Assembly: GCA_964520325.1 (NCBI GenBank)
Contig: CAZFOB010000003.1
Span: 154,745-218,744 of the forward strand
Length of the DNA: 64,000 nucleotides
Origin: an uncultured Actinomycetes bacterium
GTDB lineage: Bacteria; Actinomycetota; JAICYB01
Reading direction: 5' to 3'
Part shown: positions 18,570 to 62,515 of the stretch, one piece after another
Numbering within the stretch: the first letter of the stretch is position 1
Layout: each line of letters opens with the position of its first letter
Translations under genes and position numbers: made by a program
The notes under the pieces: generated by a model
Seen by the model: the letters and a program-made list of their open reading frames with translations, nothing else
What the model was told of the DNA's origin: nothing
Databases searched by the model: none

Positions 18570-18760
18570 CTTCACGCGTTGCTAAGGTCAGGCGACGAGA
18601 GCGACGGTGCGAGGAAGCCGGTGAGAGTCCGGCGCGGTCGCGCCACTGTGACCGGGGAGCCAGTTCCCGAAAGCCACTGCCCGAAGGGCGGGAAGGTGCG
18701 GTGATCCGGAAGCCAGGAGACTTGGGCCGTCGCTGGAGCCCCGGACGGGACGCGTAATCT
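18570..18760 (+). ncRNA. Cobalamin (B12) riboswitch
   Basis: Contains ...GGTGCGAGGAAGCCGGTGAGAGTCCGGCGCGGTCGCGCCACTGTGACCGGGGAGC... and the B12 box AAGCCAGGAGACTTGGGCC, immediately upstream of the RBS GAGGAGG and the cbtB ATG at 18774. Confidence 0.75.
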
Positions 18761-39264: not shown

Positions 39265-39440
39265 ACCTTCCCCGGGATCACGCGTCCCGAACGAAGCACT
39301 CGTGGCGGTCGAGTGTCCTGACTCCCGGATCGTCGCTCCTCCCGCCTTCCGGCCCTCTTGGCCGTGGCTTGAAGGGAATCGCTCCCCGGTTACAGTGGCG
39401 CAACCGTCCCGGATTCACACCGGGTTCCTCACGCCGCCAC
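39265..39440 (-). ncRNA. Second cobalamin (B12) riboswitch (minus strand)
   Basis: Reverse complement reads ...GGTGTGAATCCGGGACGGTTGCGCCACTGTAACCGGGGAGCGATTCCCTTCAAGCCACGGCC...GGGAGTCAGGACACTCGACC..., nearly collinear with riboswitch 1 (GCCACTG core, B12-box-like AGTCAGGACAC). It sits upstream of the ATG at 39259. Confidence 0.65.
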
Positions 39441-39487
39441 GCTGACGTCGCTACCGTACCAGACCGCCGGATAACGACCGTCTCGAA

Positions 39488-47500: not shown

Positions 47501-48017
47501 CCGTCTGGCACGCCGCGATCGCCGTCTTGATCTGGAGAAGGTCCTGACACGTCTCGATGATCAAAGCGTCGACGCCGCCTTCCATCAGCCCATCGACCTG
47601 AACGGTGTAGCTCCGTTCGAGCTCGTCGAAGGTTGCATTGCCCAGCGTCGGGAGCTTGGTCCCCGGTCCGATGCTGCCGACGACGAACCTCGGCTTGTCG
47701 GTGAAGGACGACGCCGCCTCCTTCGCGATGCGTGCGGCCGTGACGTTGAGCTCGTGGACCTTCTCCGCGAAGTCGTACTCGACCTGGACGATCTCGTTGG
47801 CGCCGAAGGTGTTCGTTTCGACGCAGTCGGCACCGGCTTCGAAGTAGTTGGCGTGGATCTGCGCGATGACGTCAGGAGAAGAGAGGTTCAGCACCTCCGA
47901 GTTGCCCTCCTGGCCCCAGTACTCGTCCAGGCTGAGATCGGCTTCGTGGATCTGCGTGCCCATGGCGCCGTCGAAGACGACGACGCGCTCACGCAAGAGG
48001 TTGAGGAGGGTTGTCAT
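44553..48017 (-). CDS. metH: Cobalamin-dependent methionine synthase
   Basis: 1154 aa. N-terminal Hcy-binding MTTLLNLLRERVVVFDGAMGTQI..., pterin-binding, B12-binding (...GDVHDIGKN...) and AdoMet-activation domains all recognisable. Confidence 0.9.
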   Translation of the reverse strand: MTTLLNLLRERVVVFDGAMGTQIHEADLSLDEYWGQEGNSEVLNLSSPDVIAQIHANYFEAGADCVETNTFGANEIVQVEYDFAEKVHELNVTAARIAKEAASSFTDKPRFVVGSIGPGTKLPTLGNATFDELERSYTVQVDGLMEGGVDALIIETCQDLLQIKTAIAACQTAFAKFGRKIPLIVQVTIETTGTMLVGSDISAALAALQPYREIDVIGLNCATGPIEMIEHVRYLTRHSRRPVSVQPNAGLPEIRDGATYYPLQPDELVQHLETFVDGFGVSLVGGCCGTTPEYIRGVADAMRDRRPKERTPEFIPSAASLYTAQPFDQDNSVFVIGERCNTNGSRRFKELIAADDYESTVRVASHQVREGAHALDVCVDFTGRAGVPDMDEVASRFATQVTLPLVIDSTEPPVVEAAFKHLGGRPILNSINLEEGTGPQTRLAQNLALARKYGAAVIAGAIEEKGQATTADWKLDVCRRLLDVCLEAGLEAHDVIYDTLALPISTGMEEARRYGIETLDSIERVKNELPGTYTTLGISNVSFGLNPAGRQVLNSVYLDEAVKRGLDMAIVSPAQIVPLARIPQEQRDVALEVIYDKRGSGEGGYDPLARFLELFEGASVSKVASSDELAALPLEERLARRIVDAARKGLEDDLAAALEIKPALEIVNDWLLNGMKVVSDRFGSGEMQLPFVLQSAETMKKAVAFLEPHMEKTSDAGKGTLVLATVKGDVHDIGKNLVDIILSNNGYTVINLGIKQAIADIITAAELHKADAIGMSGLLVKSTLVMRDNLEELNRRELQTPVLLGGAALTRSYVEHDLREIYEGDVLYGKDAFEGLRHMDAIMAFKRGETTVSPIAAAPARRKASSRTEARGSSSTERSSEVSVVVDVPVAPFWGTRVVKGVPIPEIAKWLNRTALFRGRWQYSRRKGQSIEEYTEFLSTEVEGILRDALARCVEEQILQPAVVYGYFPVRPDGNDLVVLREDGSEWVRWSFPRQPEGRKLSIPDFFRADGDVLPLHLVTMGQKVSDHAQKLFEADNYTDYLHLHGLGVEMAEALAELWHARIRDELAISSDDGPTMDEIFKQSYRGSRYSFGYPACPDLEGHVQLFELLDPGRIGVELSDEFQLVPEQSTSALVVHHPQAKYFTIQRSSEPAI

Positions 48018-50047: not shown

Positions 50048-50584
50048 ATGAAGTTCCTCCTGAGGAAGGCAAAGCTAGACGAGGTTCCGGCTCTACAGGA
50101 GTTAATCGCCAGGTCGGCTCGGGAGCTTTGCCGCGACGACTACTCAGAGGCGCAAATTGAGGCTGCAATAGGTACGGCATGGGGCGTCGACACTGAGTTG
50201 ATTCGCGATGAGACGTACTTCGCCGTTGAGGCGGATGGCGAAATTGTGGCCTGCGGTGGGTGGAGCCGACGCAAGACGCTCTTTGGCGCCGATGCTGCAG
50301 CCGATCGGGAGTCCGAGACCCTGGATCCCACCACGGACTCCGCTCGCATCCGCGCCTTCTTTGTTCGTCCCGACTGGGCACGGCAAGGGATCGGCAACTT
50401 GCTCCTCGAAGAATGCGAGTCGGAAGCGCGTGCCCATGGCTTTCGGTCGGCGGAGCTTGTCGCGACATTACCGGGACATCGGCTCTACCAGATGTTTGGA
50501 TACGTGGGCGACGAGCGAGTCGAGTACCCGCTGACTGGGGGAATCTCGATCGAGTTCATCCCGATGAAGAAGGAAGCCATTTGA
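50048..50584 (+). CDS. GNAT-family N-acetyltransferase
   Basis: ...FFVRPDWARQGIGNLLLEECESEARAHGF... is the acetyl-CoA binding motif A (Q/RxxGxG/A). Lower-GC codon usage than the surroundings. Confidence 0.8.
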   Translation: MKFLLRKAKLDEVPALQELIARSARELCRDDYSEAQIEAAIGTAWGVDTELIRDETYFAVEADGEIVACGGWSRRKTLFGADAAADRESETLDPTTDSARIRAFFVRPDWARQGIGNLLLEECESEARAHGFRSAELVATLPGHRLYQMFGYVGDERVEYPLTGGISIEFIPMKKEAI

Positions 50585-50634
50585 ACAGGCGCAGATGCGC
50601 CTGCGGAGGCTCCGGTCGGCCTTACACTGGCCTC

Positions 50635-50874
50635 ATGACGACCGAGATCAAGTGGCAAGACCACATCGTCTCGACGCCCGACACTTTGCACGGAAAGCCG
50701 CGGTTTAAGGGCACGCGCATTCCGGTCACGGTCGTCTTGGATAACCTTGCCGGCGGCGTCAGCCGCGAAGAGATCTATGACAACTGGCCGACGTTGCCGC
50801 CAGAGGCTATCGAAGTCGCACTCGCCTACGCCGCCGAGCTGGCCCGCGAGCGCATCGTCCCCATTCCGCAATAG
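50635..50874 (+). CDS. DUF433-family protein (antitoxin-like)
   Basis: MTTEIKWQDHIVSTPDTLHGKPRFKGTRIPVTVVLDNLAGGVSREEIYDNWPTLPPEAIEVALAYAAEL matches the DUF433 consensus (GKP-I-GTRI-V--VL--L-AG). Confidence 0.7.
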   Translation: MTTEIKWQDHIVSTPDTLHGKPRFKGTRIPVTVVLDNLAGGVSREEIYDNWPTLPPEAIEVALAYAAELARERIVPIPQ

Positions 50875-50877
50875 TTC

Positions 50878-51240
50878 GTGGCGTCGCTCAAGCTCGACGA
50901 GAACATGCCGGATGCGGCTGCCGAGATCCTCCGCAGCGCAGGCCACGACGTCGCTCTGGCCAGGGACGAGGCTCTGGCCGGTGAAGACGACGACCGCCTG
51001 GCGGCCGTCGCATCGGCTGAGGGCCGCGTCCTCGTCACACTGGACGTCGATTTCGCCGACATCCGTCGTCATCCGCCTGCGGGCACGCCCGGGCTTGTCG
51101 TGATCCGCCTGCATCGACAGACAGTCGGCTTGATGCGCCGGGCGGCGATCGCGCTCGGAGACTTCCTGCTGAGCGAGCCGATCACCGGCAAGCTCTGGAT
51201 CGTCGATGAATCGCGCTTGCGCGTTTGGCCCGACTGGTAG
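50878..51240 (+). CDS. DUF5615-family PIN-like protein (toxin-like partner of DUF433)
   Basis: MASLKLDENMPDAAAEILRSAGHDVALARDEALAGEDDDRLAAVASAEGRVLVTLDVDFADI... matches the DUF5615/Mut7-C-like layout. GTG start 3 nt after the DUF433 stop. Confidence 0.65.
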   Translation: MASLKLDENMPDAAAEILRSAGHDVALARDEALAGEDDDRLAAVASAEGRVLVTLDVDFADIRRHPPAGTPGLVVIRLHRQTVGLMRRAAIALGDFLLSEPITGKLWIVDESRLRVWPDW

Positions 51241-51402
51241 CGGCGCCGCATGACTCGCGGTTGCACCCGACCGAGACTGCTTTGGCGTCGACCTCATTCC
51301 CGTTCCCTCAACTCCCGGGTGCCGGATCGCGCGAAACTGTTGGAGCGGAGCGGGCGTCGACAATGTCTCAGCGGGTGAACCGCAGAAGTCGTTAGGCGAA
51401 CT

Positions 51403-51843
51403 GTGAATGTGGTTGTCACTCCCCTTGAAGATGTCGAACGGATAGTCGCGCTTGCTCAAGAGGCTGAACACGACGGACATCAGATGGTGTCTCGTTTGAT
51501 CTCGGATCACAGGGACGGCTCGAACCGCTTCAACGCGGCAGGGGAGCGGCTGTACATCGCGGAAGCTGATGGCAGAGTGCTTGGCGTGTGCGGGCTCAAC
51601 CTCGACCCATACGTTGCCGACGCCAGCGTAGGGCGCGTCCGCCGTCTCTATGTCTCGGTAGCCCAACGCCGGCTGGGTGTTGGCTCGGTTCTGGTGGATC
51701 AAGTCGTGAGTGACGCTCGTGGCACGTTCGCGAGGTTACGACTGCGCACGTACGACCCGATCGCGGCGGCGTTCTATGTGTCCCGCGGATTCGGGCAGGT
51801 CGGGGATGATGAGTTTTGTACGCATCAGATCGCCCTGGAATGA
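51403..51843 (+). CDS. GNAT-family N-acetyltransferase
   Basis: ...LYVSVAQRRLGVGSVLVDQVVSDARG... motif A. Confidence 0.75.
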   Translation: MNVVVTPLEDVERIVALAQEAEHDGHQMVSRLISDHRDGSNRFNAAGERLYIAEADGRVLGVCGLNLDPYVADASVGRVRRLYVSVAQRRLGVGSVLVDQVVSDARGTFARLRLRTYDPIAAAFYVSRGFGQVGDDEFCTHQIALE

Positions 51844-52424
51844 ACAGGCACTGCCCACGATTCGATCGCGGCCTCGACGCGATCCTGATCGTCGAGCAGG
51901 ATGCACCGGAACTTGAGGCTTCGGCGGAGAGTCTCGGTCTCGCGAAGGTCGGAGCCGTGCCCGTCATGGTGTGGGAGAACCAGCCGCCGCCGGTCGCGAA
52001 CAGTCGCTACAAGGTCCGGATGGCGGACGAAGCGGACGTACCCATCACGAACGCTCTCGTCGCTTCGGCGTTCTCCCTGGACGAAGAGAAGGTGCAACGC
52101 GCCCTGCCGCCGTCCGTCGTGAAGAGCGGAGCCGACATCTGGGTGGTCGAGGACGAGGGTGAAGCGATCGGGACCGGGATGTTCGTCCGCCGGGGCAGTC
52201 ACGTGGGGGTCTACTGCATGGCGACGCCGGAGCGCTCACAGCGGCGGGGTGTCGGTCGGGCGGTGCTCGAAACAGGGATCGCACACTACCTCGAGCGCGG
52301 CGCCAAGACGTTCACCCTGAAAGCCTCCGAGGCCGGGTTTCACCTATACGAGCAGGCGGGGTTCGTCACGGTGGCAACACCATCGGTATTCGTGACCGCT
52401 GCATCGACACAGTTCCCGAGCTGA
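51840..52424 (+). CDS. GNAT-family N-acetyltransferase
   Basis: ...GVYCMATPERSQRRGVGRAVLETGIAHYLERGAKTFTLKAS... motif A. ATG overlaps the upstream stop (ATGA). Confidence 0.65.
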   Translation: MNRHCPRFDRGLDAILIVEQDAPELEASAESLGLAKVGAVPVMVWENQPPPVANSRYKVRMADEADVPITNALVASAFSLDEEKVQRALPPSVVKSGADIWVVEDEGEAIGTGMFVRRGSHVGVYCMATPERSQRRGVGRAVLETGIAHYLERGAKTFTLKASEAGFHLYEQAGFVTVATPSVFVTAASTQFPS

Positions 52425-52648: not shown

Positions 52649-53746
52649 TCAGCTGATCGGCGACCTTTCCCTTTCGTCCAGCGCCTGCACTGTCGAACGC
52701 GAGCCGTTCGACGACACCTGAACGTCTCCGTGCGTCGTGTCCTCGGCCGCTCGATGGCGTCGGACCATCTCGCGGTCTTGGCGACGCCGAGTGCGCCATC
52801 TGCGTACACGGTCGCGCAGCAGCAACCACGCGAGCGCTGCCGCCGCAAGGAGGCCGAGCACACCGCCGACGAGCTTCCAAGGGACGAACGCAAGGTTCTT
52901 CGCCTCGCTCGAGAAGACTTTCGCTTCCTCGCCGTTGATGAACGTACGGATGTGAGCGACAGCCTGAACCCGGCCGAGCCTAGGAGGCTGGCTCCATACT
53001 CCGGAGAGCGTCGCTTTGCCATTCGGGATGACGTAGATCTCGCGTGGCGAGAGCTCGACGCTGTCGATGCGCTTGTCGTCTCGTCGCAGTTCGATCTGTC
53101 CGAGAATCGTGAATAACACGTTGCCCCGGTTCGTGATGGTCGTCTCGAAGCGGGAGCCCCCGGGAACGGCGCGCGTATTCGGCGAACTAACGCTCGCGCG
53201 TTGATCGACCTTTCCGGGAACGCGCAGCCGGACGAACAGCGCAGCTCGTGTCTCCACCGAGATCGCCTGGCTCCCATCACCGAGGTCGGCAGCGACGACC
53301 AGCGCCCCGGGATATTCCCCCGGAGCAGCGAACTCCGGTACAGAAAGCGTGAAGGGCACGGTTAGACGGCCGCGAGGGCCGATGCCTACAACGGCCTGCT
53401 CGGGATCGTCCAACGTGAGCCAATTCCCGACGGTACGCATCGTTGCGTCCCGCTGCTTGGCCGCGAGGCCACCGCCCTCAGCGGAACTCACATCGGCCGG
53501 GTAGACGTGGAGGTTGATCGGTCTGTCGGTGTAGTTGATCAGGATCGCGCCGTCGCGGACGGATGCTCCGCGCGCAAGGTCGTACGTGAAGTTGCCGTTC
53601 TTGAGCGTGGTCTCGCCATAACTCGCTGCCTTGACGCCGAACACCTTCTGCGCTGGCGCCTGCGGCGTCTGCACAGTGGCGATGGCGGGCGAGGCGACAA
53701 AGGCCGCCGCAGCCAATGCTGCGGCGGCCTTCATGACCCTCGTCAT
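52649..53746 (-). CDS. Secreted, C-terminally membrane-anchored surface protein (DUF916/DUF3324-like architecture)
   Basis: Signal peptide MTRVMKAAAALAAAAFVASPAIA, an approx 280-aa beta-rich ectodomain, a C-terminal TM helix WKLVGGVLGLLAAAALAWLLL and a basic cytoplasmic tail. Stop overlaps the start of the upstream beta-propeller gene. Confidence 0.5.
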   Translation of the reverse strand: MTRVMKAAAALAAAAFVASPAIATVQTPQAPAQKVFGVKAASYGETTLKNGNFTYDLARGASVRDGAILINYTDRPINLHVYPADVSSAEGGGLAAKQRDATMRTVGNWLTLDDPEQAVVGIGPRGRLTVPFTLSVPEFAAPGEYPGALVVAADLGDGSQAISVETRAALFVRLRVPGKVDQRASVSSPNTRAVPGGSRFETTITNRGNVLFTILGQIELRRDDKRIDSVELSPREIYVIPNGKATLSGVWSQPPRLGRVQAVAHIRTFINGEEAKVFSSEAKNLAFVPWKLVGGVLGLLAAAALAWLLLRDRVRRWRTRRRQDREMVRRHRAAEDTTHGDVQVSSNGSRSTVQALDERERSPIS

Positions 53747-55581
53747 GGCGTCGACAGGATCGAGTATTGCAGCGTGCCGCGGTAGGAGCCGGGCTGCGCA
53801 CCGGTAGGAACGACGACATGGGCGACGCTTCCGAATTGATCGAAGGTGTCTCTGGCGCCTCCCTCACCCGTAAGCAGTGTCAGCGGGGCGGAGAACGAGC
53901 CGGCGGGGTTCTGTGGGTCAACCTTGAAGGCGCTGCCGGCTCCCGCGCTAACACCCTTCGACGGAGTGATCTCACTCCCCGGGGTGAACCCGAGCCGAGT
54001 GAAGGCGACGCGCGACTCCGTTGTTGCATCAATCATGTCACTTGCCGCAACCGTGGCCGACCACGACGCTCCGGACGGCGTGGTGTTCTCGTATGAGATG
54101 TCACCGACCGAGATCGAGGTCACGGACGACCCCGGATCGATCGTCCCGAAGTCGGCGCTGTGTCGCTGCAACGCGATGGACAGGACGCCGGCCTCCTGCT
54201 CGGGCACGGTGAGACATGTCGTCTGCGATGCGCCGGTTGCGTCGCCGCATGCTCCCGGCGGCGGCGGCGGAACCTCTCCCGGCGGCGGCGGCGGCGTCGT
54301 CGACGAACCTGTGCCCATCAGCCTCACCACGGCAAAGTCTTGATCGCGACGGTCGGTCGTGCCGCCGATCACGAAGCGCCCGACATGGTCGACGACCACG
54401 GACCTCCCCTCAGAAACATTTCCTGTATTGGCGCCGCCGACGGAGATCTCGGCAGGGACGTCGTCATGGGAAACAAGCCAGAGACCCGGATCTCCGTTAC
54501 CGTCGAACCGAACCCCAACCGCCACGATCTCGCCTTCGTCCGATAGCGCGGCGTCGTTGAACAGCCCAGGATCGCGCATGCTACTTGTGGGAGATTTTCC
54601 GTCTGACGTGAGAGAAGCGTGTACGAGCCAGTATCTGTCGTCGGATGGGGGGTTCTCTCTCTCCACGACGGCCGCCCCTGCGACGAGGATCGCGTCGTCA
54701 GTCGGGAAGATACCGATCGGCTTTTCGCCACGCGAATACCCCCCCAGCTGCGGTTCAATGATGGCGCCGAACCAGTCCTGGTGCTGACCACCCTCACCGA
54801 ACCCCGAGCGATCCCACGATCCGTCGGCGTTCAGCCGCGCGATCTGCATGGCTTCGCCGAAACCCGGCTGTTGCGAAGTACCGGCGACAAGGATCTGGTC
54901 CCCTTGGAACGCCATCTCGTACAGACGAACTCGCAGTTGCGAATCGCCTCGAAACACCGTCCTGCCTGCATTGCCGAAATGCTCATCGCGTGTGCCGTTG
55001 GCGCTGAACGCATAGATGACGCCGCTGAATCCCTCGTTCTCCCACCCTTCCACGAGGATGCGATCATTCTTGTCCACGACGATCGACTCGACCTGGAAGT
55101 CGCGTGGGAGCGACTGCTTGCCCAGACTCGAGCCGAAGTCCCGATCGATGACTCCGTCGGATCTGAAGCGACCGAGGAATCCCAGACCGCCGACCACGAC
55201 CCCTCCATCGGAGTCGACCGCGATCGAAGTGATCGAGCCGGACCCCGTCGTTCCCGAAGATGCGGCCAGACCGGTTCCGCTCTGCCTTCCACCATCTCCG
55301 AATGTCGGATCCAACCTCCCACCCTCGAGATAACGAACGATCGCGTACCCATCAGCAGGGCCGAGGTATCCCCCAGCTGCGACAACGCGACTGTCTGGAT
55401 ACGTCGCGACAGCCTGCAGAGAATCGTGATCCCGACTCACGACGTCCGTCACCACTCGCCCGTCGCCTCCGAACGAAGTGTCGAGGTCCAACGCTTTCCC
55501 TTGAGCGGGGAGCGTCGTCCCGGCAACGATGAGCAAGCTCAGTAGTAGTGCAACACCGGTACAGCGTCGTCTCGTTCCCAT
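53743..55581 (-). CDS. Secreted delta-60-repeat beta-propeller protein with Pro-rich linker and WxL-like C-terminal domain
   Basis: Signal peptide, then LDTSFGGDGRVVTD... (delta-60 repeat hallmark) and repeated DxxFGxxG blades. Linker PPPPPGEVPPPPPG. The C-terminal approx 170 aa ends ...GSYRGTLQYSILSTP, resembling the terminal Y-GTL-W-L---P of WxL domains. Confidence 0.6.
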   Translation of the reverse strand: MGTRRRCTGVALLLSLLIVAGTTLPAQGKALDLDTSFGGDGRVVTDVVSRDHDSLQAVATYPDSRVVAAGGYLGPADGYAIVRYLEGGRLDPTFGDGGRQSGTGLAASSGTTGSGSITSIAVDSDGGVVVGGLGFLGRFRSDGVIDRDFGSSLGKQSLPRDFQVESIVVDKNDRILVEGWENEGFSGVIYAFSANGTRDEHFGNAGRTVFRGDSQLRVRLYEMAFQGDQILVAGTSQQPGFGEAMQIARLNADGSWDRSGFGEGGQHQDWFGAIIEPQLGGYSRGEKPIGIFPTDDAILVAGAAVVERENPPSDDRYWLVHASLTSDGKSPTSSMRDPGLFNDAALSDEGEIVAVGVRFDGNGDPGLWLVSHDDVPAEISVGGANTGNVSEGRSVVVDHVGRFVIGGTTDRRDQDFAVVRLMGTGSSTTPPPPPGEVPPPPPGACGDATGASQTTCLTVPEQEAGVLSIALQRHSADFGTIDPGSSVTSISVGDISYENTTPSGASWSATVAASDMIDATTESRVAFTRLGFTPGSEITPSKGVSAGAGSAFKVDPQNPAGSFSAPLTLLTGEGGARDTFDQFGSVAHVVVPTGAQPGSYRGTLQYSILSTP

Positions 55582-55765: not shown

Positions 55766-58700
55766 TCAGACGCCGCGACGCGTGGCTTCGGCTGCGAGTT
55801 CAGCTCGCGTGGACACGCCGAGCTTGCCGAAGACGTTGCGCAGATGGGCGGAGACCGTCCGCTTCGAGACGAACAGCCGCTCGCCGATCTGGGGATTCGT
55901 CAGGCCTTCGGCGACGAGGGCGACGACCTTCAGCTCGGTCGGCGTGAGGCTGTCCCACCCGGCCGGCGGACGGCGACGCGGCCCCCACCCGCGGAGAGCG
56001 AAGGCGACGGCGTCGTCGAGCTCGGTCACCTCGCCGGCGGACCAGGCGTCCGTGAATGCGTCCTCGCCCAAGCGGGAGCGCGCAGCGGCGATGTCGTCCG
56101 AGATGGTGAGGACCGGATTCGGCCTGCGGACCGTCCCCATCCGTGTGCGGGCCGAGGTCGCCGCTGCCCAGAGCCGTACGGCGTCGGCGTCGGCGCCGAC
56201 GTCCGAGCGGAGCGCAGCCGCCACATCGAGGAGGTCGGGAGCCAACACGCGGGGCCCCAAATCGCTGATGACCGTCAGCCCCTCGTGGACATGCCGTTCC
56301 GCTTCCTCTATCTCTCCCATCGCGCGAGCGGCGATGGCGCTTGCACCCAGGGTCAACGCCGTGATGAACAAAAAGGGGATCTGCGCGGGCGCGACGGTGC
56401 CAGCATCGATCGTTCGCCTGGCCTTCTCGCGATCGCCTGCGGCGACGAAGTTGATCGCTCGCAGTCCCGAGATCACGTCGCCGTACATCATCGCGACCAT
56501 GTGGAGGCCATCGGTCCGCTCGTCCGCATCTGACGCGTCGCTGCTGATCAGCGAGAACTCCTCATCCGCATCTTCGATCCGACCTTCGTCGACGGCCATC
56601 CACGCGAGGGCGAACCTGGCCATGAGCGCGACCATGGCGCGTTCAGGGGTGTCCGCATCGGCGAGCGACAACGCTCGCGCTGCGTGTTCCCGTGCTCTGG
56701 CCGAATCGCCCTTCAGCCAGAGGGCGCAGGCGAGGAAGGTCTCGGCCCTCGATGTCCACTCCGGTTCACCGGCAGCCGCGAACCACGCACGGCTGTCCTC
56801 GAGCACGTTGATCCCCGCGTCGACGTCACCGGCCTGGTACAGCGCGAAGCCGTACACCTGACGCAGCGGTTCGGCGCTGAGATTCGCCTGCTGGGCAACA
56901 GCCAGCCCTTCCCGAACGGCGGCGAGTCCGCGCTCCCCGGTGTACCCGAGGGCCTGGCCCAGGAAGTACTGGGCCTGCCAGAGCGCAGCCGGGTCGTTCG
57001 CGTCCCTCGCGACCTGGACGCTCTCTTCGAGGACCGCCACTCCCTGCGCCCGATCCACCATGCTGAGCGAGAACCCGTACCGCTGCAGGAGGTACGAGAG
57101 GTGGGACAGGTTTCCGATCTCGCGCGCAAGGGGGATCGCATCGCGCGCGAGCGTCCCGCCTTCGATGACTTCACCCTCGATGAACATCGCGTGCGCGAGC
57201 GCTGCCGACGCTGCAACTCTCGCGTGCGGCGGCGCATCGCCTGTGTCGCGCAACAGTTCATCGAGCCAGCGCCGGCCTTCACGGACCCGCATCCCTGAAC
57301 TGGTCGCGAACGAGCGTATCCAAACGTCCCAAAGCGAAGTCGCCAGACGCAGACCGGACTCGTGATGTCCATCGACGATCGCCCATTCGCATGCTTCGCG
57401 GAGGTTGTCGTACATGACGTCGATGGCGGCTCGCGTTTCCAGAGGGCCCCCTTTTCCGCCCCTCAGTTCGGCCAGCAGGTTCACTGCCCAGTCGGCGTGG
57501 AAGTCGAGATGACTCGTCGAGACGTCCTTCGCCTCGCCACTCGCAACCAAACGCTCGCGTGCGTACTGACGGATGGTCTCGAGCAATCGGTAGCTCGTAC
57601 CAGACCCGGTGTCATCCGCAACGACCAACGAACGATCGACGAGCTGGGAGAGGAGCTCGAGGACGTCCGCTTGTTGGACCTCACCACCGGACACGACATG
57701 CTCGGCCCCCGCGAGCGTGAAGGTTCCCGCGAATACGGCCAGCCGCCGAAGGACGACCTTCTGCGGGCCGGACAGCATGTCGTGGCTCCATCCGACCGAC
57801 GCCTCGAGGGTCTGCTGCCGCGCGAGCACGGTGCGCGAACCACGTCCGAGCAGGCGGAAGCGGTCGTTGATGCCTGAGGCAAGGTCACGCACGGACAACA
57901 CACGCACGCGGGCGGCGGCCAGCTCGAGCGCGAGGGGGATCCCATCGAGACGCTTGCAGATCTCCGCCACGGACGCCGCGCTCTCAGCCGTCAGCGCGAA
58001 TCCCGGCCGCGCATGCGCCGCGCGGTCGACGAACAGCCGCACGGCGTCGTATCCGAGGAGATCTTCCGGACGATCGCTCCCGTTCTCCGGAGCACGCAGG
58101 GACGGCACGCGCCACGCGACCTCGCTCTCCACGCCGACCGGCTCGCGGCTGGTCGTGATGATGTGCACGTTCGGACAGGCCTTGAGGATCGCGTCGGCGA
58201 GTCGAGCGCTGGCGTCGACGAGATGCTCGCAGTTGTCCAGAACGACGAGGGCTGCGAGACCCGACAGCCGCAGGCACACCGACTCGGTGTCGTCCCTCGA
58301 TCGATCCTCGCGAACGCCCATGGTCGTGCGGAGCGTTTGCGCTACGGCGGATGGATCGGACAGGGGGCCGAGATCACAGAACCACACGCCGTCCGGGAAC
58401 ATGTCGGGGACCAAGCGCGAAACCTCGATGGCCAGGCGCGTCTTCCCGCAGCCGCCGGCGCCTGTCAGCGTGACCAGCCGGTGCTCGCCGACGAGCCGGC
58501 GGGCCTCTTCGAGTTCGAGGACACGTCCGACGAAGCTCGTGAGGGGCACGGGGAGGTTGCCCGCGCTCGCGGGCGACGAGCGGATCGGTGGGAACCGTCC
58601 CTGAAGCGCCGGATGGGTGAGCTGGTAGGCGCGCTCGGCGCGGTCGAGATCCTTCAGCTGGTGGGAGCCGAGATCGATCAGGTCCACGCCGTCGGGAAGC

Positions 58701-59188
58701 GCGTCCTGGACGAGGTCGCGCGTCGAGGACGACAGGAGCGTCTGGCCCCCGTGCGCGAGATCGCGCAGCCGAGCCGTCCGGATGATGACCGGACCGTCAT
58801 AGCGGGACTCGTCGCGGAGCTCGACCTCGCCCGTGTGCAGCGCCATGCGGACGGCGATGGGTCCGTCCACCAGCCCGATCTGCAACGCGAGCGCCGCCGC
58901 AACTGCGTCGGACGCACGCGCGAACGCGACGACGAAGCTGTCCCCTTCGCCCTGCTCGAGAGGACGGGCGCCACCACATCGTGCGGCGACCTCGTCGATC
59001 AGGGCGTCGAGGGAGGACATGGAGGAGCGCATCTGCGCTGCCTGCTCCTCCCACGCACGCGTCGACGACTCGACGTCGGCGAGCAAGAGCGTCACCGTCC
59101 CCGACGGGAGTTGGACGGCGCGTTCGTCATTCTTCATCGCGAGTCCAGTGTGGGCCACCGCCGCATCGTGACGCAGACCGCGCACCAC
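55766..59188 (-). CDS. Adenylate-cyclase-domain / STAND NTPase / TPR / LuxR-HTH transcriptional regulator
   Basis: N-terminal class III cyclase (...VTLLLADVESST...), P-loop LTGAGGCGKTRLA, TPR-like helical region, and C-terminal LuxR HTH ...LTPTELKVVALVAEGLTNPQIGERLFVSKRTVSAHLRNVFGKLGV. An alternative start lies at ATG 59137. Confidence 0.85.
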   Translation of the reverse strand: MVRGLRHDAAVAHTGLAMKNDERAVQLPSGTVTLLLADVESSTRAWEEQAAQMRSSMSSLDALIDEVAARCGGARPLEQGEGDSFVVAFARASDAVAAALALQIGLVDGPIAVRMALHTGEVELRDESRYDGPVIIRTARLRDLAHGGQTLLSSSTRDLVQDALPDGVDLIDLGSHQLKDLDRAERAYQLTHPALQGRFPPIRSSPASAGNLPVPLTSFVGRVLELEEARRLVGEHRLVTLTGAGGCGKTRLAIEVSRLVPDMFPDGVWFCDLGPLSDPSAVAQTLRTTMGVREDRSRDDTESVCLRLSGLAALVVLDNCEHLVDASARLADAILKACPNVHIITTSREPVGVESEVAWRVPSLRAPENGSDRPEDLLGYDAVRLFVDRAAHARPGFALTAESAASVAEICKRLDGIPLALELAAARVRVLSVRDLASGINDRFRLLGRGSRTVLARQQTLEASVGWSHDMLSGPQKVVLRRLAVFAGTFTLAGAEHVVSGGEVQQADVLELLSQLVDRSLVVADDTGSGTSYRLLETIRQYARERLVASGEAKDVSTSHLDFHADWAVNLLAELRGGKGGPLETRAAIDVMYDNLREACEWAIVDGHHESGLRLATSLWDVWIRSFATSSGMRVREGRRWLDELLRDTGDAPPHARVAASAALAHAMFIEGEVIEGGTLARDAIPLAREIGNLSHLSYLLQRYGFSLSMVDRAQGVAVLEESVQVARDANDPAALWQAQYFLGQALGYTGERGLAAVREGLAVAQQANLSAEPLRQVYGFALYQAGDVDAGINVLEDSRAWFAAAGEPEWTSRAETFLACALWLKGDSARAREHAARALSLADADTPERAMVALMARFALAWMAVDEGRIEDADEEFSLISSDASDADERTDGLHMVAMMYGDVISGLRAINFVAAGDREKARRTIDAGTVAPAQIPFLFITALTLGASAIAARAMGEIEEAERHVHEGLTVISDLGPRVLAPDLLDVAAALRSDVGADADAVRLWAAATSARTRMGTVRRPNPVLTISDDIAAARSRLGEDAFTDAWSAGEVTELDDAVAFALRGWGPRRRPPAGWDSLTPTELKVVALVAEGLTNPQIGERLFVSKRTVSAHLRNVFGKLGVSTRAELAAEATRRGV

Positions 59189-59493: not shown

Positions 59494-60582
59494 TCACTCG
59501 AAGCAGACGTGGTGCGTGCGTCCTTCTTCGAGGAAGCGAAGAAGATCTGCGCCCTCCTCGACCAGCGCTGATCGCTCGACGTTCGTCAGCTTCCGGATCG
59601 GTCCGAGCACGAGCGTCGCCGTCGTCTTCTTGCGCTCGATCTTCCAGGTTCCGCAAACGAAACCGTCTACCGAGAAGCTCGACCAACCCACCGCCTCTTT
59701 GACGGGCCAGGCCTCGTAGATGATCCGGCTGCGATCGGCGTGTCCGAGGAACACGTTGTCGTAGTCGCCGAAGAAGCGTGGTGGTGCGGGTGTGTCGGCG
59801 TCCGGGAACGGTGATCCGGGGACGTCGAACAGCTCGCGTTCCTTCTCGTCGCAAAACGTCACGAGTTTCGCACGCAACCGGTCGATCAGATCGCGGTGTC
59901 CGCTGATACCCGACCAGTTGCGGAAGTCCGCCATCGTTGCCGGACCGAAGGCCGTGAGGTAGCGCAGGAACATCTGGTCGATCGACGGCCGTTTCGCGAG
60001 CGGCTTGCCGAGCCATCCTTCGACGGTCGTCCAGTACGGCCGTCCGGTTCGTCCCCACAACCCTCGGGGCGGTGTCTGCACGAGCGGGAGCGCGAACTTG
60101 ACCGCGAAGCCGAGCGCTTCGGCGTCGCGGCCGGGCCACCGCTTCAGGAGCAGCTTGCCGATCTCCGGCGTCGTCCTCGGCTGCTCTTCGAGGATCGCTC
60201 GACCGGCGTCCAGCATGTCTTGGATGTCGAGACCGGTGAGTCGCTTGCCGAAGGCCTGGCCGCTGAAGGCCCGCTCGAGGACGCGCTGGACGAGCGGACG
60301 GATCTTCCGGACGTCGCCCGATGAGACCAGATGGATGGTTGAGCGCATCAATGGAGCACGCACGACGCGCTTGTCCTCGAGCGCCCTGCTGAGCTCCATC
60401 GGGTCGAAGTCGTTCAGGCGCGTCCACATCGTGATGTATGGGTTGGACGGCTCCTGGGCTTGCACCCCGACGAGATGCTCGACGAGGTCGATGACCGGCA
60501 TGCCCACGCGAGCGAGGAGCATCTGGCGCGCGAGCAGCGAGCGATTGAGGGTGCGTCTATTGAGGGTCGGGGCAGCGGTCAT
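59494..60582 (-). CDS. Winged-helix DNA-binding protein, AlkZ/YcaQ-like (DUF1006) putative DNA glycosylase
   Basis: ...LLARQMLLARVGMPVIDLVEHLVGVQAQEPSNPYITMWTRL...VRAPLMRSTIHLV... is characteristic of the YcaQ/AlkZ family. Start ATG at 60582. Confidence 0.65.
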   Translation of the reverse strand: MTAAPTLNRRTLNRSLLARQMLLARVGMPVIDLVEHLVGVQAQEPSNPYITMWTRLNDFDPMELSRALEDKRVVRAPLMRSTIHLVSSGDVRKIRPLVQRVLERAFSGQAFGKRLTGLDIQDMLDAGRAILEEQPRTTPEIGKLLLKRWPGRDAEALGFAVKFALPLVQTPPRGLWGRTGRPYWTTVEGWLGKPLAKRPSIDQMFLRYLTAFGPATMADFRNWSGISGHRDLIDRLRAKLVTFCDEKERELFDVPGSPFPDADTPAPPRFFGDYDNVFLGHADRSRIIYEAWPVKEAVGWSSFSVDGFVCGTWKIERKKTTATLVLGPIRKLTNVERSALVEEGADLLRFLEEGRTHHVCFE

Positions 60583-60625
60583 CGAACTAGTATCGACACG
60601 TCTGGGAGCCAACGGAGGACGCAGC

Positions 60626-62515
60626 GTGGCGATGACGATGTCGATCGAGCAGGCGGTGGCGGAAGCTGATGTGCCCGTGCTGCTCGTCGCCACCGCGCAC
60701 CTGACCGGCGACCTCTCACTGCTCCGGGACGAGTTCCGTCCCGACTCCTCCAACCTCTTCGACCCGAACGCCGGTCTGTCCGAGGAAGCCATCGCTCAGG
60801 CACGCGTGCTCGCGGGCGACGTGCTGCGTCGCCACTTCGACTCAGGGACCGACCCCGCCCCGGACAGCAGTGACGCCGACCTGTACCGGATGATCGCGTT
60901 CCTCGTCGGCGAAGAGCCGATGGAGGAGTACCTTCCCGTGCTGCTCGAAGAGCTCGCACTGTCGGGGACCGATCCACGCGCGCCGACATGGCACAAGTCG
61001 GACATCGCACCGGACACCGCGTTCAGCGTCGCCGTCGTCGGCGCGGGCATGTCCGGACTCGTCGTCGCGCATCGGCTCCTGCAGGCCGGGATCGACGTCA
61101 CGATCTTCGAGAAGAACGCCGATGTCGGCGGAACGTGGCTCGAGAACACATATCCGGGGTGCCGCGTGGACGTCCCGAGCAATCTCTACAGCTACTCCTT
61201 CGCGCAGACTCCGTGGCCGGGGTTCTTCTCAGCGCAGGAGAGCCTCCTCGGCTACTTCCGGCAATGCGCGGACGATCTCGGTCTCCGCGAGCACATCCGC
61301 TTCGGCACCGAGGTCTTGTCGTGCGCCTACGACGACGAGCCCCAGATGTGGTCGCTTCGCGTCAGCACCGACGGTCGAGAGGAGATCCACGAGTGCAACG
61401 CCGTCGCGAGCGCGGTCGGTCAGCTGAACCGGCCGAAGTTCCCCGACATCGCCGGGCGCGATCGGTTCGCCGGCCGGTCGTTCCACTCGGCCCGCTGGGA
61501 GTACGACGTCGATCTGTCGGAGGCGCGGGTGGCGATCATCGGTACCGGCGCGAGCGCGGCGCAGTTCATCCCCACGGTGGGTGAGCAGGCCGGAGCTCTC
61601 ACCGTCTTCCAACGAACCGCGCCGTGGCTCGTTCCGACGCCCAACTACCACGACGGGATCCCCGACGGCGTTGCTTTCCTGCTCGATCGGGTTCCGAACT
61701 ATGTGCGGTGGGACCGGCTCTGGCTCTTCTGGCGTTCGCACGAGGGACTGCTGCCGGCTGCGCAGGTCGATCCGGAGTGGCCGGATCAGCACAAGTCGAT
61801 CAGCATGATGAACGAGTTCGTGCGGATATTCCTCACGGAGTACCTTCGCGCTGAGTTCCCGGAAGACGAGCTGTTCGAGAAGGTCGTCCCCAACTACCCG
61901 CCGATCGCCAAGCGCATCGTGCGCGACAACGGGATCTATGCGCGGACGCTGCGGCGTGACAACGTCGACCTCGTCACCGAGAGGATCGAGGAGATCACGG
62001 AGACGGGCATCCGCACTGCCGACGGCGTCGAGCACTCATTCGACGTGATCATCTACGGGACGGGGTTCCATGCCTCGAAGTTCCTGATGCCGATGGGCGT
62101 CACAGGACGAGACGGCGTCGACCTCCACAAGCATTGGGACGGCGACCCGCGCGCGTACCTCGGTCTCGTTGTCCCGCAGTTCCCGAACCTGTTCATGCTC
62201 TACGGTCCGAACACCAACATCGTGATCAACGGCAGCATCATCTACTTCTCCGAGTGCGAAGCCCACTACATCGTCGAGTCGGTCCGGATGCTGCTCGAGG
62301 ACGGCCATCGGTCGATGGAGTGCCGGACGGACGTGCACGACGACTACAACGTGCTCATCGACGACACCAACCGTCGCATGGCGTGGGGCGCGTCGACGGT
62401 GAGCACCTGGTACAAGAACGAGAAAGGCCGCATCACCCAGAATTGGCCCTTCTCGCTGCTCGAGTACTGGCAGCGCACACGCATGCCGGATCCGAACGAA
62501 TACGTCCTGCGCTGA
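60626..62515 (+). CDS. Flavin-containing / Baeyer-Villiger-type monooxygenase with approx 120-aa N-terminal extension
   Basis: FAD motif VAVVGAGMSGLVVAHRL, FMO motif ...GGTWLENTYPGCRVDVPS..., NADPH motif VAIIGTGASAAQ. GTG 60626 lies 6 nt after RBS GGAGGA. The 836-aa six-frame ORF from 60005 overlaps the divergent gene and is rejected. Confidence 0.8.
   Translation: MAMTMSIEQAVAEADVPVLLVATAHLTGDLSLLRDEFRPDSSNLFDPNAGLSEEAIAQARVLAGDVLRRHFDSGTDPAPDSSDADLYRMIAFLVGEEPMEEYLPVLLEELALSGTDPRAPTWHKSDIAPDTAFSVAVVGAGMSGLVVAHRLLQAGIDVTIFEKNADVGGTWLENTYPGCRVDVPSNLYSYSFAQTPWPGFFSAQESLLGYFRQCADDLGLREHIRFGTEVLSCAYDDEPQMWSLRVSTDGREEIHECNAVASAVGQLNRPKFPDIAGRDRFAGRSFHSARWEYDVDLSEARVAIIGTGASAAQFIPTVGEQAGALTVFQRTAPWLVPTPNYHDGIPDGVAFLLDRVPNYVRWDRLWLFWRSHEGLLPAAQVDPEWPDQHKSISMMNEFVRIFLTEYLRAEFPEDELFEKVVPNYPPIAKRIVRDNGIYARTLRRDNVDLVTERIEEITETGIRTADGVEHSFDVIIYGTGFHASKFLMPMGVTGRDGVDLHKHWDGDPRAYLGLVVPQFPNLFMLYGPNTNIVINGSIIYFSECEAHYIVESVRMLLEDGHRSMECRTDVHDDYNVLIDDTNRRMAWGASTVSTWYKNEKGRITQNWPFSLLEYWQRTRMPDPNEYVLR

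What the first reader, a model, noticed from the sequence alone, without database searches (positions are those of the whole stretch)
52649..55581. Csc-like cell-surface pair in a high-GC genome: delta-60 beta-propeller with WxL-like C-terminus plus a DUF916-like anchored protein
Two overlapping minus-strand genes encode (i) a 612-aa secreted protein with delta-60 repeats (LDTSFGGDGRVVTD...), a polyproline linker and an approx 170-aa C-terminal domain ending GSYRGTLQYSILSTP, and (ii) a 365-aa protein with signal peptide, beta-rich ectodomain, a single C-terminal TM helix and a basic tail. This mirrors the WxL / DUF916-DUF3324 (Csc) surface-complex logic described in low-GC Gram-positives, which is not a typical actinobacterial feature. 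The locus borders the low-GC GNAT/TA islet, which raises the possibility of horizontal origin.
Basis: inference. Interest (0 to 1): 0.58.

Follow-up and report, generated by a model that had tools for sequence, protein, structure and literature searches.

The report
Divergent WxL-type surface-anchoring gene pair
Two overlapping genes in an uncultured actinobacterium encode a secreted beta-propeller protein and a membrane-anchored partner that are very distant, so far unannotated relatives of the WxL / WxL-interacting-protein surface-display system of lactic acid bacteria, and the same pair is conserved in many Streptomyces, Acidimicrobiia and Chloroflexota.

Summary
Two minus-strand genes overlap by 4 bp. 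P1 (612 aa) has a signal peptide, a delta-60 propeller, a proline linker and a 170-aa C-terminal module. P2 (365 aa) has a signal peptide, two beta-rich domains, a TM helix and a basic tail.

Pfam's WxL, DUF916 and DUF3324 models do not hit either window protein. Family profiles do show homology. The module family matches canonical WxL domains (hhalign 94%, E 1e-7; controls below 1.5%). P2's first domain matches DUF916/PGBD (95.7%) and the solved EfmWxLIP1 structure (E 1.5e-6). P2's second domain is not DUF3324; it is CARDB/DUF7507-like.

The module defines an unmodelled family of about 100 representative clusters. It always ends the protein with "...GTLQYTITG", so Tyr-Thr-Ile replaces the second Trp-x-Leu motif. 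It occurs alone or behind beta-propellers. In 20 of 20 testable genome loci (15 Streptomyces, also Acidimicrobiia and Chloroflexota) the partner gene follows directly.

So the Csc/WxL analogy holds. The claims that it is atypical for actinobacteria and horizontally acquired do not. I read it as a minimal two-gene variant of a known system: a membrane partner that holds propeller cargo on the cell surface. That function is inferred, not shown.

The parts
53743..55581 (-). P1 gene: 612-aa secreted cargo protein (signal peptide, delta-60 beta-propeller, Pro-rich linker, C-terminal WxL-like module)
   Evidence: ORF. TIGR02608 scores 91.6 bits, above the cutoff. The exact protein is in NCBI and Logan without a name.
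55498..55581 (-). P1 signal peptide, about residues 1-28 (MGTRRRCTGVALLLSLLIVAGTTLPAQG). The cleavage site is inferred.
   Evidence: This is the only hydrophobic segment of P1. Read directly from the sequence.
54316..55497 (-). Delta-60 repeat / DUF5122-type beta-propeller cargo domain (about residues 29-422)
   Evidence: TIGR02608 E 2e-26 in 5 stretches. PF17164 DUF5122 E 5e-4.
54256..54315 (-). Pro-rich linker (GTGSSTTPPPPPGEVPPPPP)
   Evidence: Read directly from the sequence.
53746..54255 (-). C-terminal 170-aa WxL-like module. Motif 1 is G-A-S-W-S-A-T-V-A-A-S, motif 2 is Y-R-G-T-L-Q-Y-S-I-L-S-T-P at the C-terminus.
   Evidence: 103 representative relatives. AF2 model pLDDT 94.4, all-beta. 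hhalign to canonical WxL 94%, E 1.3e-7. Motif statistics.
53743..53746 (-). ATGA stop/start overlap between P1 and P2 (translational coupling inferred)
   Evidence: The same junction type is seen in relatives: a 4-nt gap in Streptomyces and a 4-nt overlap in the P0002 contig.
52649..53746 (-). P2 gene: 365-aa WxLIP-like type I membrane protein
   Evidence: ORF. Family profile against the solved EfmWxLIP1 structure, E 1.5e-6 to 3.5e-6. hhalign to canonical WxLIP 96.5%.
53678..53746 (-). P2 signal peptide, about residues 1-23 (…VASPAIA|T). The cleavage site is inferred.
   Evidence: Hydrophobic N-terminal segment. Sequence.
53213..53647 (-). P2 domain 1: DUF916 / WxLIP_PGBD-like Ig domain (about residues 34-178). 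It keeps the F-x-Y-D-L strand and the VP…PG-E-Y-P-G motif.
   Evidence: PF06030 E 0.2, but covering positions 15-119 of the 121-position profile. Homologs reach 36.6 bits, above the cutoff. Domain-wise hhalign 95.7%, E 8.9e-9.
52880..53212 (-). P2 domain 2: CARDB/DUF11/DUF7507-like Ig domain with an N-x-G-N-V motif (about residues 179-289). It is not detectably DUF3324.
   Evidence: hhalign to the canonical HBD gives 0.15%. 7 of 13 members hit DUF7507 weakly, and none hit PF11797 or any PDB chain.
52817..52879 (-). P2 transmembrane helix (about residues 290-310, WKLVGGVLGLLAAAALAWLLL)
   Evidence: Hydropathy. It aligns to the canonical WxLIP TM helix.
52652..52816 (-). P2 basic cytoplasmic tail (RDRVRRWRTRRRQDREMVRRHR…)
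   Evidence: 14 K/R in the last 54 residues.
55766..59188 (-). Upstream same-strand STAND-type regulator (AAA_22, TPR, GerE/LuxR HTH). It is a possible regulator of the pair; the association is soft.
   Evidence: Pfam. Homologs lie next to the pair in the Acidimicrobiia and Chloroflexota loci L005, L016 and L018, and an AAA_16-TPR-GerE gene is in L004. None is found in the Streptomyces loci.

Best explanation
This is a minimal two-gene, translationally coupled surface-display unit of the WxL / WxL-interacting-protein (WxLIP, Csc) type.

Both proteins are exported by Sec. P2 stays in the membrane through its C-terminal helix, with the basic tail inside the cell, and projects two Ig-like domains into the wall zone. 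Its N-terminal DUF916/PGBD-type domain binds the C-terminal WxL-like module of P1. This probably works as predicted for canonical WxLIP-WxL pairs, where a beta-strand or hairpin from the partner completes the module's beta-sandwich, possibly together with peptidoglycan contacts. That holds P1's delta-60 beta-propeller on the cell surface without a sortase.

Shown here: the gene structure, the homology of the module to WxL and of P2 domain 1 to PGBD, the strict synteny of the two genes across phyla, and the role of the module as a portable C-terminal tag for many propeller types.

Inferred only: the physical P1-P2 interaction, strand complementation, peptidoglycan binding, and what the propeller binds.
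For: Gene pair and topology:
-.

The module as a family:
- 103 representative clusters at E<=1e-3 and 71 at E<=1e-10. The module is always at the extreme C-terminus. 32 members are small stand-alone proteins and 48 are large fusions, as with small and large WxL proteins.

Module homology to WxL:
- hhalign 94.0%, E 1.3e-7, over 143 columns spanning the domain. It aligns 'GvLsI..FG', the Trp motif and the terminal 'VP..Y.gTL.[WY].[LI]..P'.
- The control against WxLIP gives 1.4%, and 20 column-shuffled controls give at most 0.4%.
- The bridging Streptomyces protein L003_439 keeps a 'GWSL' motif. It scores 95.8% to the module family and 86.6% to canonical WxL, against a 0.09% control. It also hits PF13731 at E 0.0016.
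- Motif spacing is 92-111 residues, against 85-118 in the canonical set.

Partner homology to WxLIP:
- Family profiles hit the solved EfmWxLIP1 structures 9i25_C and 9i1y_A at E 1.5e-6 to 3.5e-6.
- PGBD-only hhalign gives 95.7%, E 8.9e-9, with cross-controls at 0.2% and shuffled controls at or below 0.8%.
- 18 of 24 partners hit PF06030 at E<=0.01, and two pass the curated cutoff.

Synteny:
- Loci were found solely through the module's C-terminal DNA pattern, and 20 of 20 with downstream DNA carry the partner gene directly downstream on the same strand.
- The junction is a 4-nt gap or a 4-nt overlap.

Structure and literature:
- The AF2 module model has pLDDT 94.4 and is an all-beta sandwich.
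- That fits the published AF2 prediction that a WxLIP strand completes the WxL sandwich (PMC10599100).

Cargo:
- Across 49 large representatives the cargo is mostly beta-propellers of at least 8 Pfam families.
Against: - No curated HMM (PF13731, PF06030, PF11797) reaches significance on the window proteins themselves. The module profile hits no PDB chain, and only 2 of 46 modules touch PF13731, best E 0.0035.
- The literal dual Trp-x-Leu signature is not kept. Motif 1 is W-S-[A/V/T] and motif 2 is Y-T-I.
- P2 domain 2 is not DUF3324.
- There is no second (small) WxL-like gene and no LPXTG gene, although the published definition of a WxL cluster requires at least 2 WxL proteins.
- No complex prediction or experiment was possible, so the interaction and the anchoring role rest on homology and synteny.
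- In one locus (L004) a stand-alone module gene is followed by an NHL-propeller gene rather than a partner gene.
Confidence: 0.68

Rival explanations
1. The C-terminal module is an independent carbohydrate-binding (CBM-like) or lectin domain. P1 would then be a freely secreted propeller protein that binds an environmental or cell-wall polysaccharide by itself. P2 would be a co-transcribed but functionally separate COG1470-type membrane protein.
For: - UniRef calls the Streptomyces partners 'COG1470 family protein'.
- In L004 a stand-alone module gene is not followed by a partner gene.
Against: - Module-partner adjacency with a 4-nt junction is strict, 20 of 20 loci across three phyla. That is hard to explain without a joint function.
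- Specific profile-level homology links both proteins to the two components of one known interacting system.
Confidence: 0.15
2. The module and partner form, or prime, a polymer. This would be a donor-strand-exchange fibre or sheath built from module-bearing subunits, analogous to chaperone-usher pili or archaeal cannulae, rather than a 1:1 anchor. P2 would act as the membrane-bound base or chaperone.
For: - One third of family members are stand-alone modules of about 200 aa.
- The published AF2 models show strand insertion from WxLIP into WxL.
Against: - No extra N-terminal donor strand is evident in the module.
- Most loci encode only one module protein, so there is no separate major subunit.
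- No usher-like or sortase gene is nearby.
Confidence: 0.07
3. The resemblance to WxL/WxLIP is convergent or generic beta-sandwich similarity. On this view the pair is an unrelated actinobacterial surface or membrane system of unknown function.
For: - Identity to canonical proteins is only about 14-15% in the hhalign alignments.
- Curated HMMs miss the window proteins.
- The second partner domain is unrelated to DUF3324.
- The canonical profiles were built from only 9-12 plasmid-borne sequences.
Against: - Reciprocal cross-controls and shuffled controls score at or below 1.4%, against 94-96% for the true pairings.
- Independent HMMER evidence links the partner profile to the solved EfmWxLIP1.
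- Intermediate Streptomyces sequences pass Pfam's PF06030 cutoff or bridge to WxL.
- Both components, their order of domains, the extreme C-terminal position and the gene linkage all match at once.
Confidence: 0.1

Closest known systems
WxL gene clusters of Lactobacillales/Bacillales (Csc clusters of L. plantarum; Elr operon of E. faecalis; E. faecium loci A-C): small WxL + large WxL + WxLIP (DUF916-DUF3324-TM) ± LPXTG protein (PMC1534035, PMC9772566, PMC10599100)
   Same: - The secreted cargo protein carries an anchoring domain of about 170 aa at its very C-terminus.
- That domain has two conserved aromatic motifs at similar spacing (92-111 against 85-118 residues) and the ending Y-x-[GST]-T-L-x-[W/Y]-x-[L/I]-x-x-x-P.
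- The adjacent gene encodes signal peptide, DUF916/PGBD domain, a second Ig domain, a TM helix and a basic tail, and is of similar size (365 aa against 337-365 aa).
- The module occurs both as small stand-alone proteins and fused to large cargo.
- Profile-level homology holds for both components.
   Different: - Only one module gene per locus, so the published 'at least 2 WxL' cluster definition is not met, and there is no LPXTG gene.
- The second motif is Tyr-Thr-Ile rather than Trp-x-Leu, and the first motif lacks the Leu.
- The partner's second domain is CARDB/DUF7507-like, not DUF3324.
- The cargo is a beta-propeller (delta-60, FG-GAP, Kelch, NHL, Vgb-lyase-like) rather than an Ig, LRR or beta-helix adhesin.
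- The hosts are free-living high-GC Actinomycetota and Chloroflexota, not gut commensals.
- Pfam and NCBIfam models do not detect it.
Streptomyces proteins that NCBI names 'WxL protein peptidoglycan domain-containing protein' (for example P0005 from Streptomyces sp. NRRL B-3229, with its upstream 439-aa neighbour in locus L003)
   Same: - The partner architecture is the same. P0005 aligns to P2 at phmmer E 9.5e-15, 33% identity, and passes the PF06030 cutoff.
- The upstream gene ends in a WxL-like module that scores 95.8% against the window's module family.
   Different: - The L003 module keeps a canonical 'GWSL' first motif and ends 'LTLTLS'.
- Its cargo is not a propeller (weak Ig-like hits only).
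- An extra 157-aa secreted protein is present in that locus.
- This subfamily is partly annotated, whereas the window's subfamily is named only 'FG-GAP/VCBS repeat protein' plus 'hypothetical protein / COG1470 family'.
Donor-strand-complemented pilins and fibres (chaperone-usher pili, archaeal cannulae CanX)
   Different: There is no sequence homology, no usher or chaperone, and no evidence of polymerisation. This is a resemblance of mechanism only, and it is inferred.

Membership tests
WxL domain (Pfam PF13731) | Significant match to the curated PF13731 HMM | tested here: not met
   No hit for P1 or its isolated module, even at E<=10. Only 2 of 46 family modules hit, best E 0.0035. The bridging Streptomyces protein scores E 0.0016, 18.9 bits, below the cutoff of 25.
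WxL domain (Pfam PF13731) | Remote homology at profile-profile level to bona fide WxL domains | tested here: met
   hhalign 94.0%, E 1.3e-7, 143 columns. Controls are at or below 1.4%, and shuffled controls at or below 0.4%. The bridge sequence scores 95.8% and 86.6%.
WxL domain (Pfam PF13731) | Two Trp-x-Leu motifs (PMC9772566) | tested here: not met
   Motif 1 is W (44/46)-S/T-[A19, V17, T6]. Motif 2 is Y (45/46)-T (44/46)-I (36/46). In the window these are WSA and YSI. Position and spacing are conserved, but the literal residues are not.
WxL domain (Pfam PF13731) | Domain always at the extreme C-terminus of a signal-peptide-bearing protein, with small stand-alone and large cargo-fused forms | tested here: met
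   The gap to the C-terminus is 0-5 residues in nearly all of about 100 representatives. 32 are small and 48 are large.
WxL domain (Pfam PF13731) | Non-covalent binding to peptidoglycan or the cell surface | not testable with these tools
   This needs cell-fractionation or peptidoglycan pull-down experiments.
WxL domain (Pfam PF13731) | Same three-dimensional fold as canonical WxL domains | tested here: inconclusive
   The module model is confident (pLDDT 94.4). However, no WxL domain is in the PDB and the AlphaFold database libraries were unavailable.
WxLIP (DUF916/PF06030 PGBD + DUF3324/PF11797 HBD + TM helix) | N-terminal DUF916 / WxLIP_PGBD domain | tested here: met
   The window protein alone scores E 0.2, but over positions 15-119 of the 121-position profile. 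The family profile hits the solved EfmWxLIP1 at E 1.5e-6. hhalign PGBD against PGBD gives 95.7%. 18 of 24 family members hit PF06030, and two are above the cutoff.
WxLIP (DUF916/PF06030 PGBD + DUF3324/PF11797 HBD + TM helix) | Second domain is DUF3324 / WxLIP_HBD | tested here: not met
   No PF11797 hit in any member. hhalign of domain 2 against the canonical HBD gives 0.15%, the same as the cross-controls. The domain-2 profile does not hit EfmWxLIP1 chains. The best Pfam match is DUF7507 (7 of 13 members) and CARDB.
WxLIP (DUF916/PF06030 PGBD + DUF3324/PF11797 HBD + TM helix) | Signal peptide, two tandem Ig-like ectodomains, a single C-terminal TM helix, and a size of about 320-380 aa | tested here: met
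   365 aa. Hydropathy shows an N-terminal segment and a segment at about 290-310, followed by a basic tail. The full-length alignment to canonical WxLIP includes the TM helix.
WxLIP (DUF916/PF06030 PGBD + DUF3324/PF11797 HBD + TM helix) | Physical interaction with the cognate WxL domain (strand insertion) | not tested
Only synteny (20 of 20 loci) and homology support the interaction.
WxL gene cluster as defined by Hassan et al. 2023 (PMC10599100) | At least one WxLIP and at least two WxL genes within four genes of each other | tested here: not met
   There is only one module gene in the whole 64-kb window and one per related locus, even with a sensitive search (hmmsearch --max, E<=10).
WxL gene cluster as defined by Hassan et al. 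2023 (PMC10599100) | Accompanying small LPXTG protein (frequent, not essential) | tested here: not met
   No LPXTG-type ORF is found in the window or in the actinobacterial loci. The same regex recovers 4 of 5 canonical LPXTG neighbours.
Delta-60 repeat proteins (TIGR02608 / DUF5122 beta-propeller) | Match above the curated cutoff of TIGR02608 | tested here: met
   91.6 bits against a cutoff of 76.5, E 2e-26, 5 repeat stretches.

The most novel reading that the evidence does not exclude
The 'QYTITG' module plus the PGBD-CARDB-TM partner is an unrecognised branch of the WxL/WxLIP system that spans Actinomycetota and Chloroflexota. In this branch a membrane-anchored partner captures beta-propeller cargo through strand complementation. 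If so, WxL-type anchoring would be an ancient, general surface-display mechanism of monoderm bacteria that does not need sortase. It would not be a host-adhesion speciality of gut Firmicutes. It would also supply a portable C-terminal tag for displaying proteins on Streptomyces.
Probability: 0.5. Interest if true: 0.6.

Novelty: new variant of a known kind. Interest (0 to 1): 0.45.

Why it matters
WxL/WxLIP systems have been described almost only in Lactobacillales and Bacillales and are interpreted as host-adhesion or virulence devices. One review counts 91% of known WxL sequences in Firmicutes (PMC9772566).

A conserved, divergent version in soil and environmental Actinomycetota (including many Streptomyces) and in Chloroflexota changes that picture:
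- It would widen the system to other monoderm phyla.
- It would decouple the system from animal hosts.
- It would give a function to a family of about 100 protein clusters that current Pfam and NCBIfam models miss. These are now annotated only as 'FG-GAP/VCBS repeat protein' plus 'hypothetical protein'.

It also identifies a compact two-gene cassette (C-terminal tag plus membrane partner) that could be tested as a surface-display tool in actinomycetes. The minimal 1:1 arrangement would be a simple model for testing the proposed strand-complementation mechanism. The biological role of the propeller cargo remains unknown.

Tried and rejected
- **Direct Pfam/NCBIfam scans of the window proteins.** Only delta-60 was significant. 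WxL, DUF916 and DUF3324 were not.
- **Single-sequence AF2 of full-length P1.** The model was unusable at pLDDT 34, which wasted one of the two structure jobs.
- **Pairwise BLAST of the module against the Streptomyces L003 protein.** Not significant. Only profiles see the relationship.
- **Module profile against PDB sequences.** No hit.
- **The search for related loci with alignments A2 and A4.** Both failed because no stretch was conserved enough. I replaced them with a degenerate DNA pattern for 'TLQYTITG-stop'. That pattern biases the locus sample toward Streptomyces-type endings and excludes the window's own 'QYSILSTP' ending.
- **C-terminal motif as a sorting signal (LPXTG or PEP-CTERM-like).** Rejected. 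No TM helix follows it, and it forms the last strand of a confidently folded domain.
- **Recent transfer from low-GC Firmicutes.** Rejected. There is only a modest GC3 dip (0.71-0.76 against about 0.82), and all relatives are from high-GC lineages.
- **Promoter and terminator scan.** Uninformative.
- **L002 '484-aa variant' of P1.** This is only a different start call on identical DNA.
- **Literature search.** It found no description of actinobacterial WxL-like systems.


Full report
**1. Observation**

They share an ATGA stop/start overlap.

P1 has the following parts:
- One N-terminal hydrophobic segment, which is a signal peptide with inferred cleavage after AQG28.
- A delta-60 repeat region that passes NCBIfam's curated cutoff. 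TIGR02608 scores 91.6 bits against 76.5, E 2e-26, in five stretches.
- The linker TTPPPPPGEVPPPPPG.
- A 170-residue C-terminal domain ending GSYRGTLQYSILSTP.

P2 has a signal-like N-terminus and a beta-rich ectodomain. It has one further hydrophobic helix at about residues 290-310, followed by an Arg-rich tail.

MetH in the same window has its best named relatives in 'Actinomycetota bacterium' MAGs at 65% identity or less. Unnamed metagenomic relatives reach 89%. The organism is therefore an uncultured actinobacterial lineage with 66.6% GC.

**2.

Applied directly to the window proteins, these tests fail:
- PF13731 (WxL) gives no hit, even at E<=10 on the isolated module.
- PF06030, which Pfam now names WxLIP_PGBD, gives E 0.2.
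- PF11797 gives no hit.

The weak PF06030 match does cover positions 15-119 of the 121-position profile. P2's homologs form a graded series: P0004 at E 1.7e-4, P0003 at E 3.7e-3, and Streptomyces P0005 and P0006 at 36.6 and 35.4 bits, above the 27.3 cutoff. P0005 and P0006 match P2 at phmmer E 9.5e-15 and 3.7e-11. NCBI already names them 'WxL protein peptidoglycan domain-containing protein'.

**3. The partner protein P2**

A profile of P2 plus six homologs hits the solved structures of Enterococcus faecium WxLIP1 (9i1y_A, 9i25_C) at E 3.5e-6. A 24-member profile hits them at E 1.5e-6.

I harvested nine canonical WxLIP and twelve canonical WxL proteins from annotated Firmicute plasmids. hhalign then gave these results:
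- Full-length partner family against canonical WxLIP: 96.5%, E 9.5e-10.
- First domain alone against canonical PGBD: 95.7%, E 8.9e-9.
- Cross-controls: 0.2%. Column-shuffled controls: at most 0.8%.

The most conserved canonical PGBD strand (…YFDL…) aligns with P2's GNFTYDL.

The second ectodomain shows no relationship to DUF3324/HBD:
- hhalign gives 0.15%.
- No member hits PF11797.
- Its profile does not hit EfmWxLIP1.

It carries an N-x-G-N-V motif, and 7 of 13 members weakly match DUF7507, with CARDB and DUF11 also appearing. P2 is therefore a PGBD-type WxLIP relative with a different distal domain.

**4. The C-terminal module of P1**

A word-indexed search found only two relatives, both stand-alone proteins of about 200 aa. 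The exhaustive profile search found 103 representative clusters, 71 of them at E<=1e-10.

In nearly all of them the module is the last thing in the protein. It ends with a near-invariant Y-x-G-T-L-Q-Y-T-I-T-G-COOH. 32 members are small stand-alone proteins and 48 are large fusions. This is the same small/large split that defines WxL proteins (PMC9772566).

Neither Pfam nor NCBIfam has a model that detects it.

With the 46-sequence alignment, AF2 gives a confident all-beta model (pLDDT 94.4, pTM 0.83).

The module family matches canonical WxL domains at 94.0%, E 1.3e-7, over 143 columns. Controls against WxLIP give 1.4%, and 20 shuffled controls give at most 0.4%. The match is to the small-type WxL profile (92.6%).

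The alignment pairs three features of the module with their canonical counterparts:

| Module | Canonical WxL |
|---|---|
| G-V-L-S-I…F-G | G-x-L-s-i…FG |
| G-x-x-W-S-x-T-V-A-A-T | G-W-x-L-x-V |
| V-P…G-S-Y-x-G-T-L-Q-Y-T-I | V-P…Y-x-s-T-L-t-W-x-L-x-x-x-P |

A Streptomyces protein next to P0005 (L003_439) keeps 'GWSL' and bridges the two groups. It scores 95.8% to the module family and 86.6% to canonical WxL, against 0.09% for the control. It also hits PF13731 at E 0.0016.

The literal dual Trp-x-Leu signature is not kept. Motif 1 is W-S-[A/V/T] and motif 2 is Y-T-I, at a spacing of 92-111 residues against 85-118 in the canonical set.

**5. Linkage and distribution**

A degenerate DNA pattern for 'TLQYTITG-stop' found 21 species-representative genomes: 15 Streptomyces, 2 Acidimicrobiia, 2 Chloroflexota and 2 unclassified MAGs.

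In all 20 loci that include downstream DNA, a P2-like gene lies directly downstream on the same strand. The junction is a 4-nt gap in Streptomyces and a 4-nt overlap in the window and in its nearest relative.

There is one module gene per locus, only one in the 64-kb window, and no LPXTG gene.

RefSeq names the Streptomyces proteins 'FG-GAP/VCBS repeat protein' and 'hypothetical protein'. UniRef names the partner 'COG1470 family protein'. The system is therefore widespread but not annotated as such.

Across 49 large representatives the cargo is mostly beta-propellers of many families: Vgb-lyase-like, FG-GAP, delta-60/DUF5122, Kelch, NHL, Reg_prop, PD40 and lactonase.

A STAND-type AAA-TPR-LuxR regulator like the one upstream of P1 also neighbours the pair in the Acidimicrobiia and Chloroflexota loci, but not in Streptomyces.

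**6. Mechanism**

The best-supported reading is a minimal WxL/WxLIP-type surface-display unit. P2 is a type I membrane protein whose PGBD domain captures the C-terminal module of P1. This probably happens by completing the module's beta-sandwich with a strand, as AF2 predicts for canonical pairs (PMC10599100). The delta-60 propeller is then held at the cell surface. The tight junction suggests coupled translation and 1:1 stoichiometry.

Homology, architecture and synteny are shown. Interaction, peptidoglycan binding and the propeller's ligand are inferred.

The rivals are scored lower, mainly because of the specific reciprocal profile matches and the strict synteny:
- An autonomous CBM-like module with an unrelated partner.
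- A donor-strand fibre.
- Generic beta-sandwich convergence.

**7. Horizontal origin**

P1 and P2 have somewhat lower GC3 (0.71 and 0.76) than core genes (about 0.82-0.86), similar to the adjacent GNAT genes. The region may therefore be accessory. Nothing points to a Firmicute source, because every detectable relative is from a high-GC lineage.

**8. Verdict**

The Csc/WxL analogy is substantively right for the module and for the DUF916 domain. It is wrong for DUF3324, wrong on rarity in actinobacteria, and unsupported on horizontal transfer.

This is a new variant of a known kind of system: a two-gene cassette, Trp-to-Tyr and Leu-to-Ile changes in the second motif, propeller cargo, a CARDB-like distal domain, and hosts in environmental monoderm phyla. 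Interest is moderate.

Noticed in passing
window 18612-18722 (+) and 39291-39473 (-): Two cobalamin riboswitches (Rfam RF00174, 72 and 80.5 bits) lie in the same window as a B12-dependent methionine synthase MetH (44553-48017, -).
   Followed up: no
window 50048-52424 (+): Three GNAT acetyltransferase genes (50048-50584, 51403-51843, 51816-52424) flank a DUF433/DUF5615 toxin-antitoxin-like pair (50635-51240). GNAT1 and GNAT2 have GC3 of 0.66-0.69 against about 0.82 in core genes, so this is a small accessory islet next to the pair.
   Followed up: partly
window 55766-59188 (-); L005:145-3171, L016:4632-6233, L018:3357-4943, L004:426-3161: A large STAND-type regulator (AAA_22/AAA_16 + TPR + GerE HTH) sits next to the module/partner pair in the window and in the Acidimicrobiia and Chloroflexota loci, but not in the Streptomyces loci. 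It may be a lineage-specific regulator of the pair.
   Followed up: partly
L024:3047-4635 (Streptomyces gardneri) and L014:1171-2399 (Streptomyces sp. NPDC000410): In these two genomes the module gene (L024) or the partner gene (L014) is split over two overlapping reading frames. This suggests a frameshift pseudogene or a sequencing error.
   Followed up: no
L004:4777-6706: A stand-alone 206-aa module protein (P0008, the closest relative of the window's module) is followed by an NHL-repeat beta-propeller gene cut off by the contig end, not by a WxLIP-like gene. Module and propeller may be encoded separately there.
   Followed up: no
L003:5993-8969 (Streptomyces sp. NRRL B-3229): This is a second actinobacterial subfamily. 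A 157-aa secreted protein and a 439-aa protein with a 'GWSL…LTLTLS' module precede a PF06030-positive partner. In sequence it lies between canonical WxL and the window's module family.
   Followed up: partly
window 54220-54255 (-), P1 residues 443-456: Two cysteines (GACGDATGASQTTC) bracket the start of the module, which may form a disulfide loop. Only 3 of 46 family modules have such a pair, and 28 have no Cys at all.
   Followed up: partly
window 59494-60792 (-): An AlkZ-like DNA glycosylase gene (PF06224, E 5e-79) lies just beyond the regulator. It appears unrelated to the finding.
   Followed up: no
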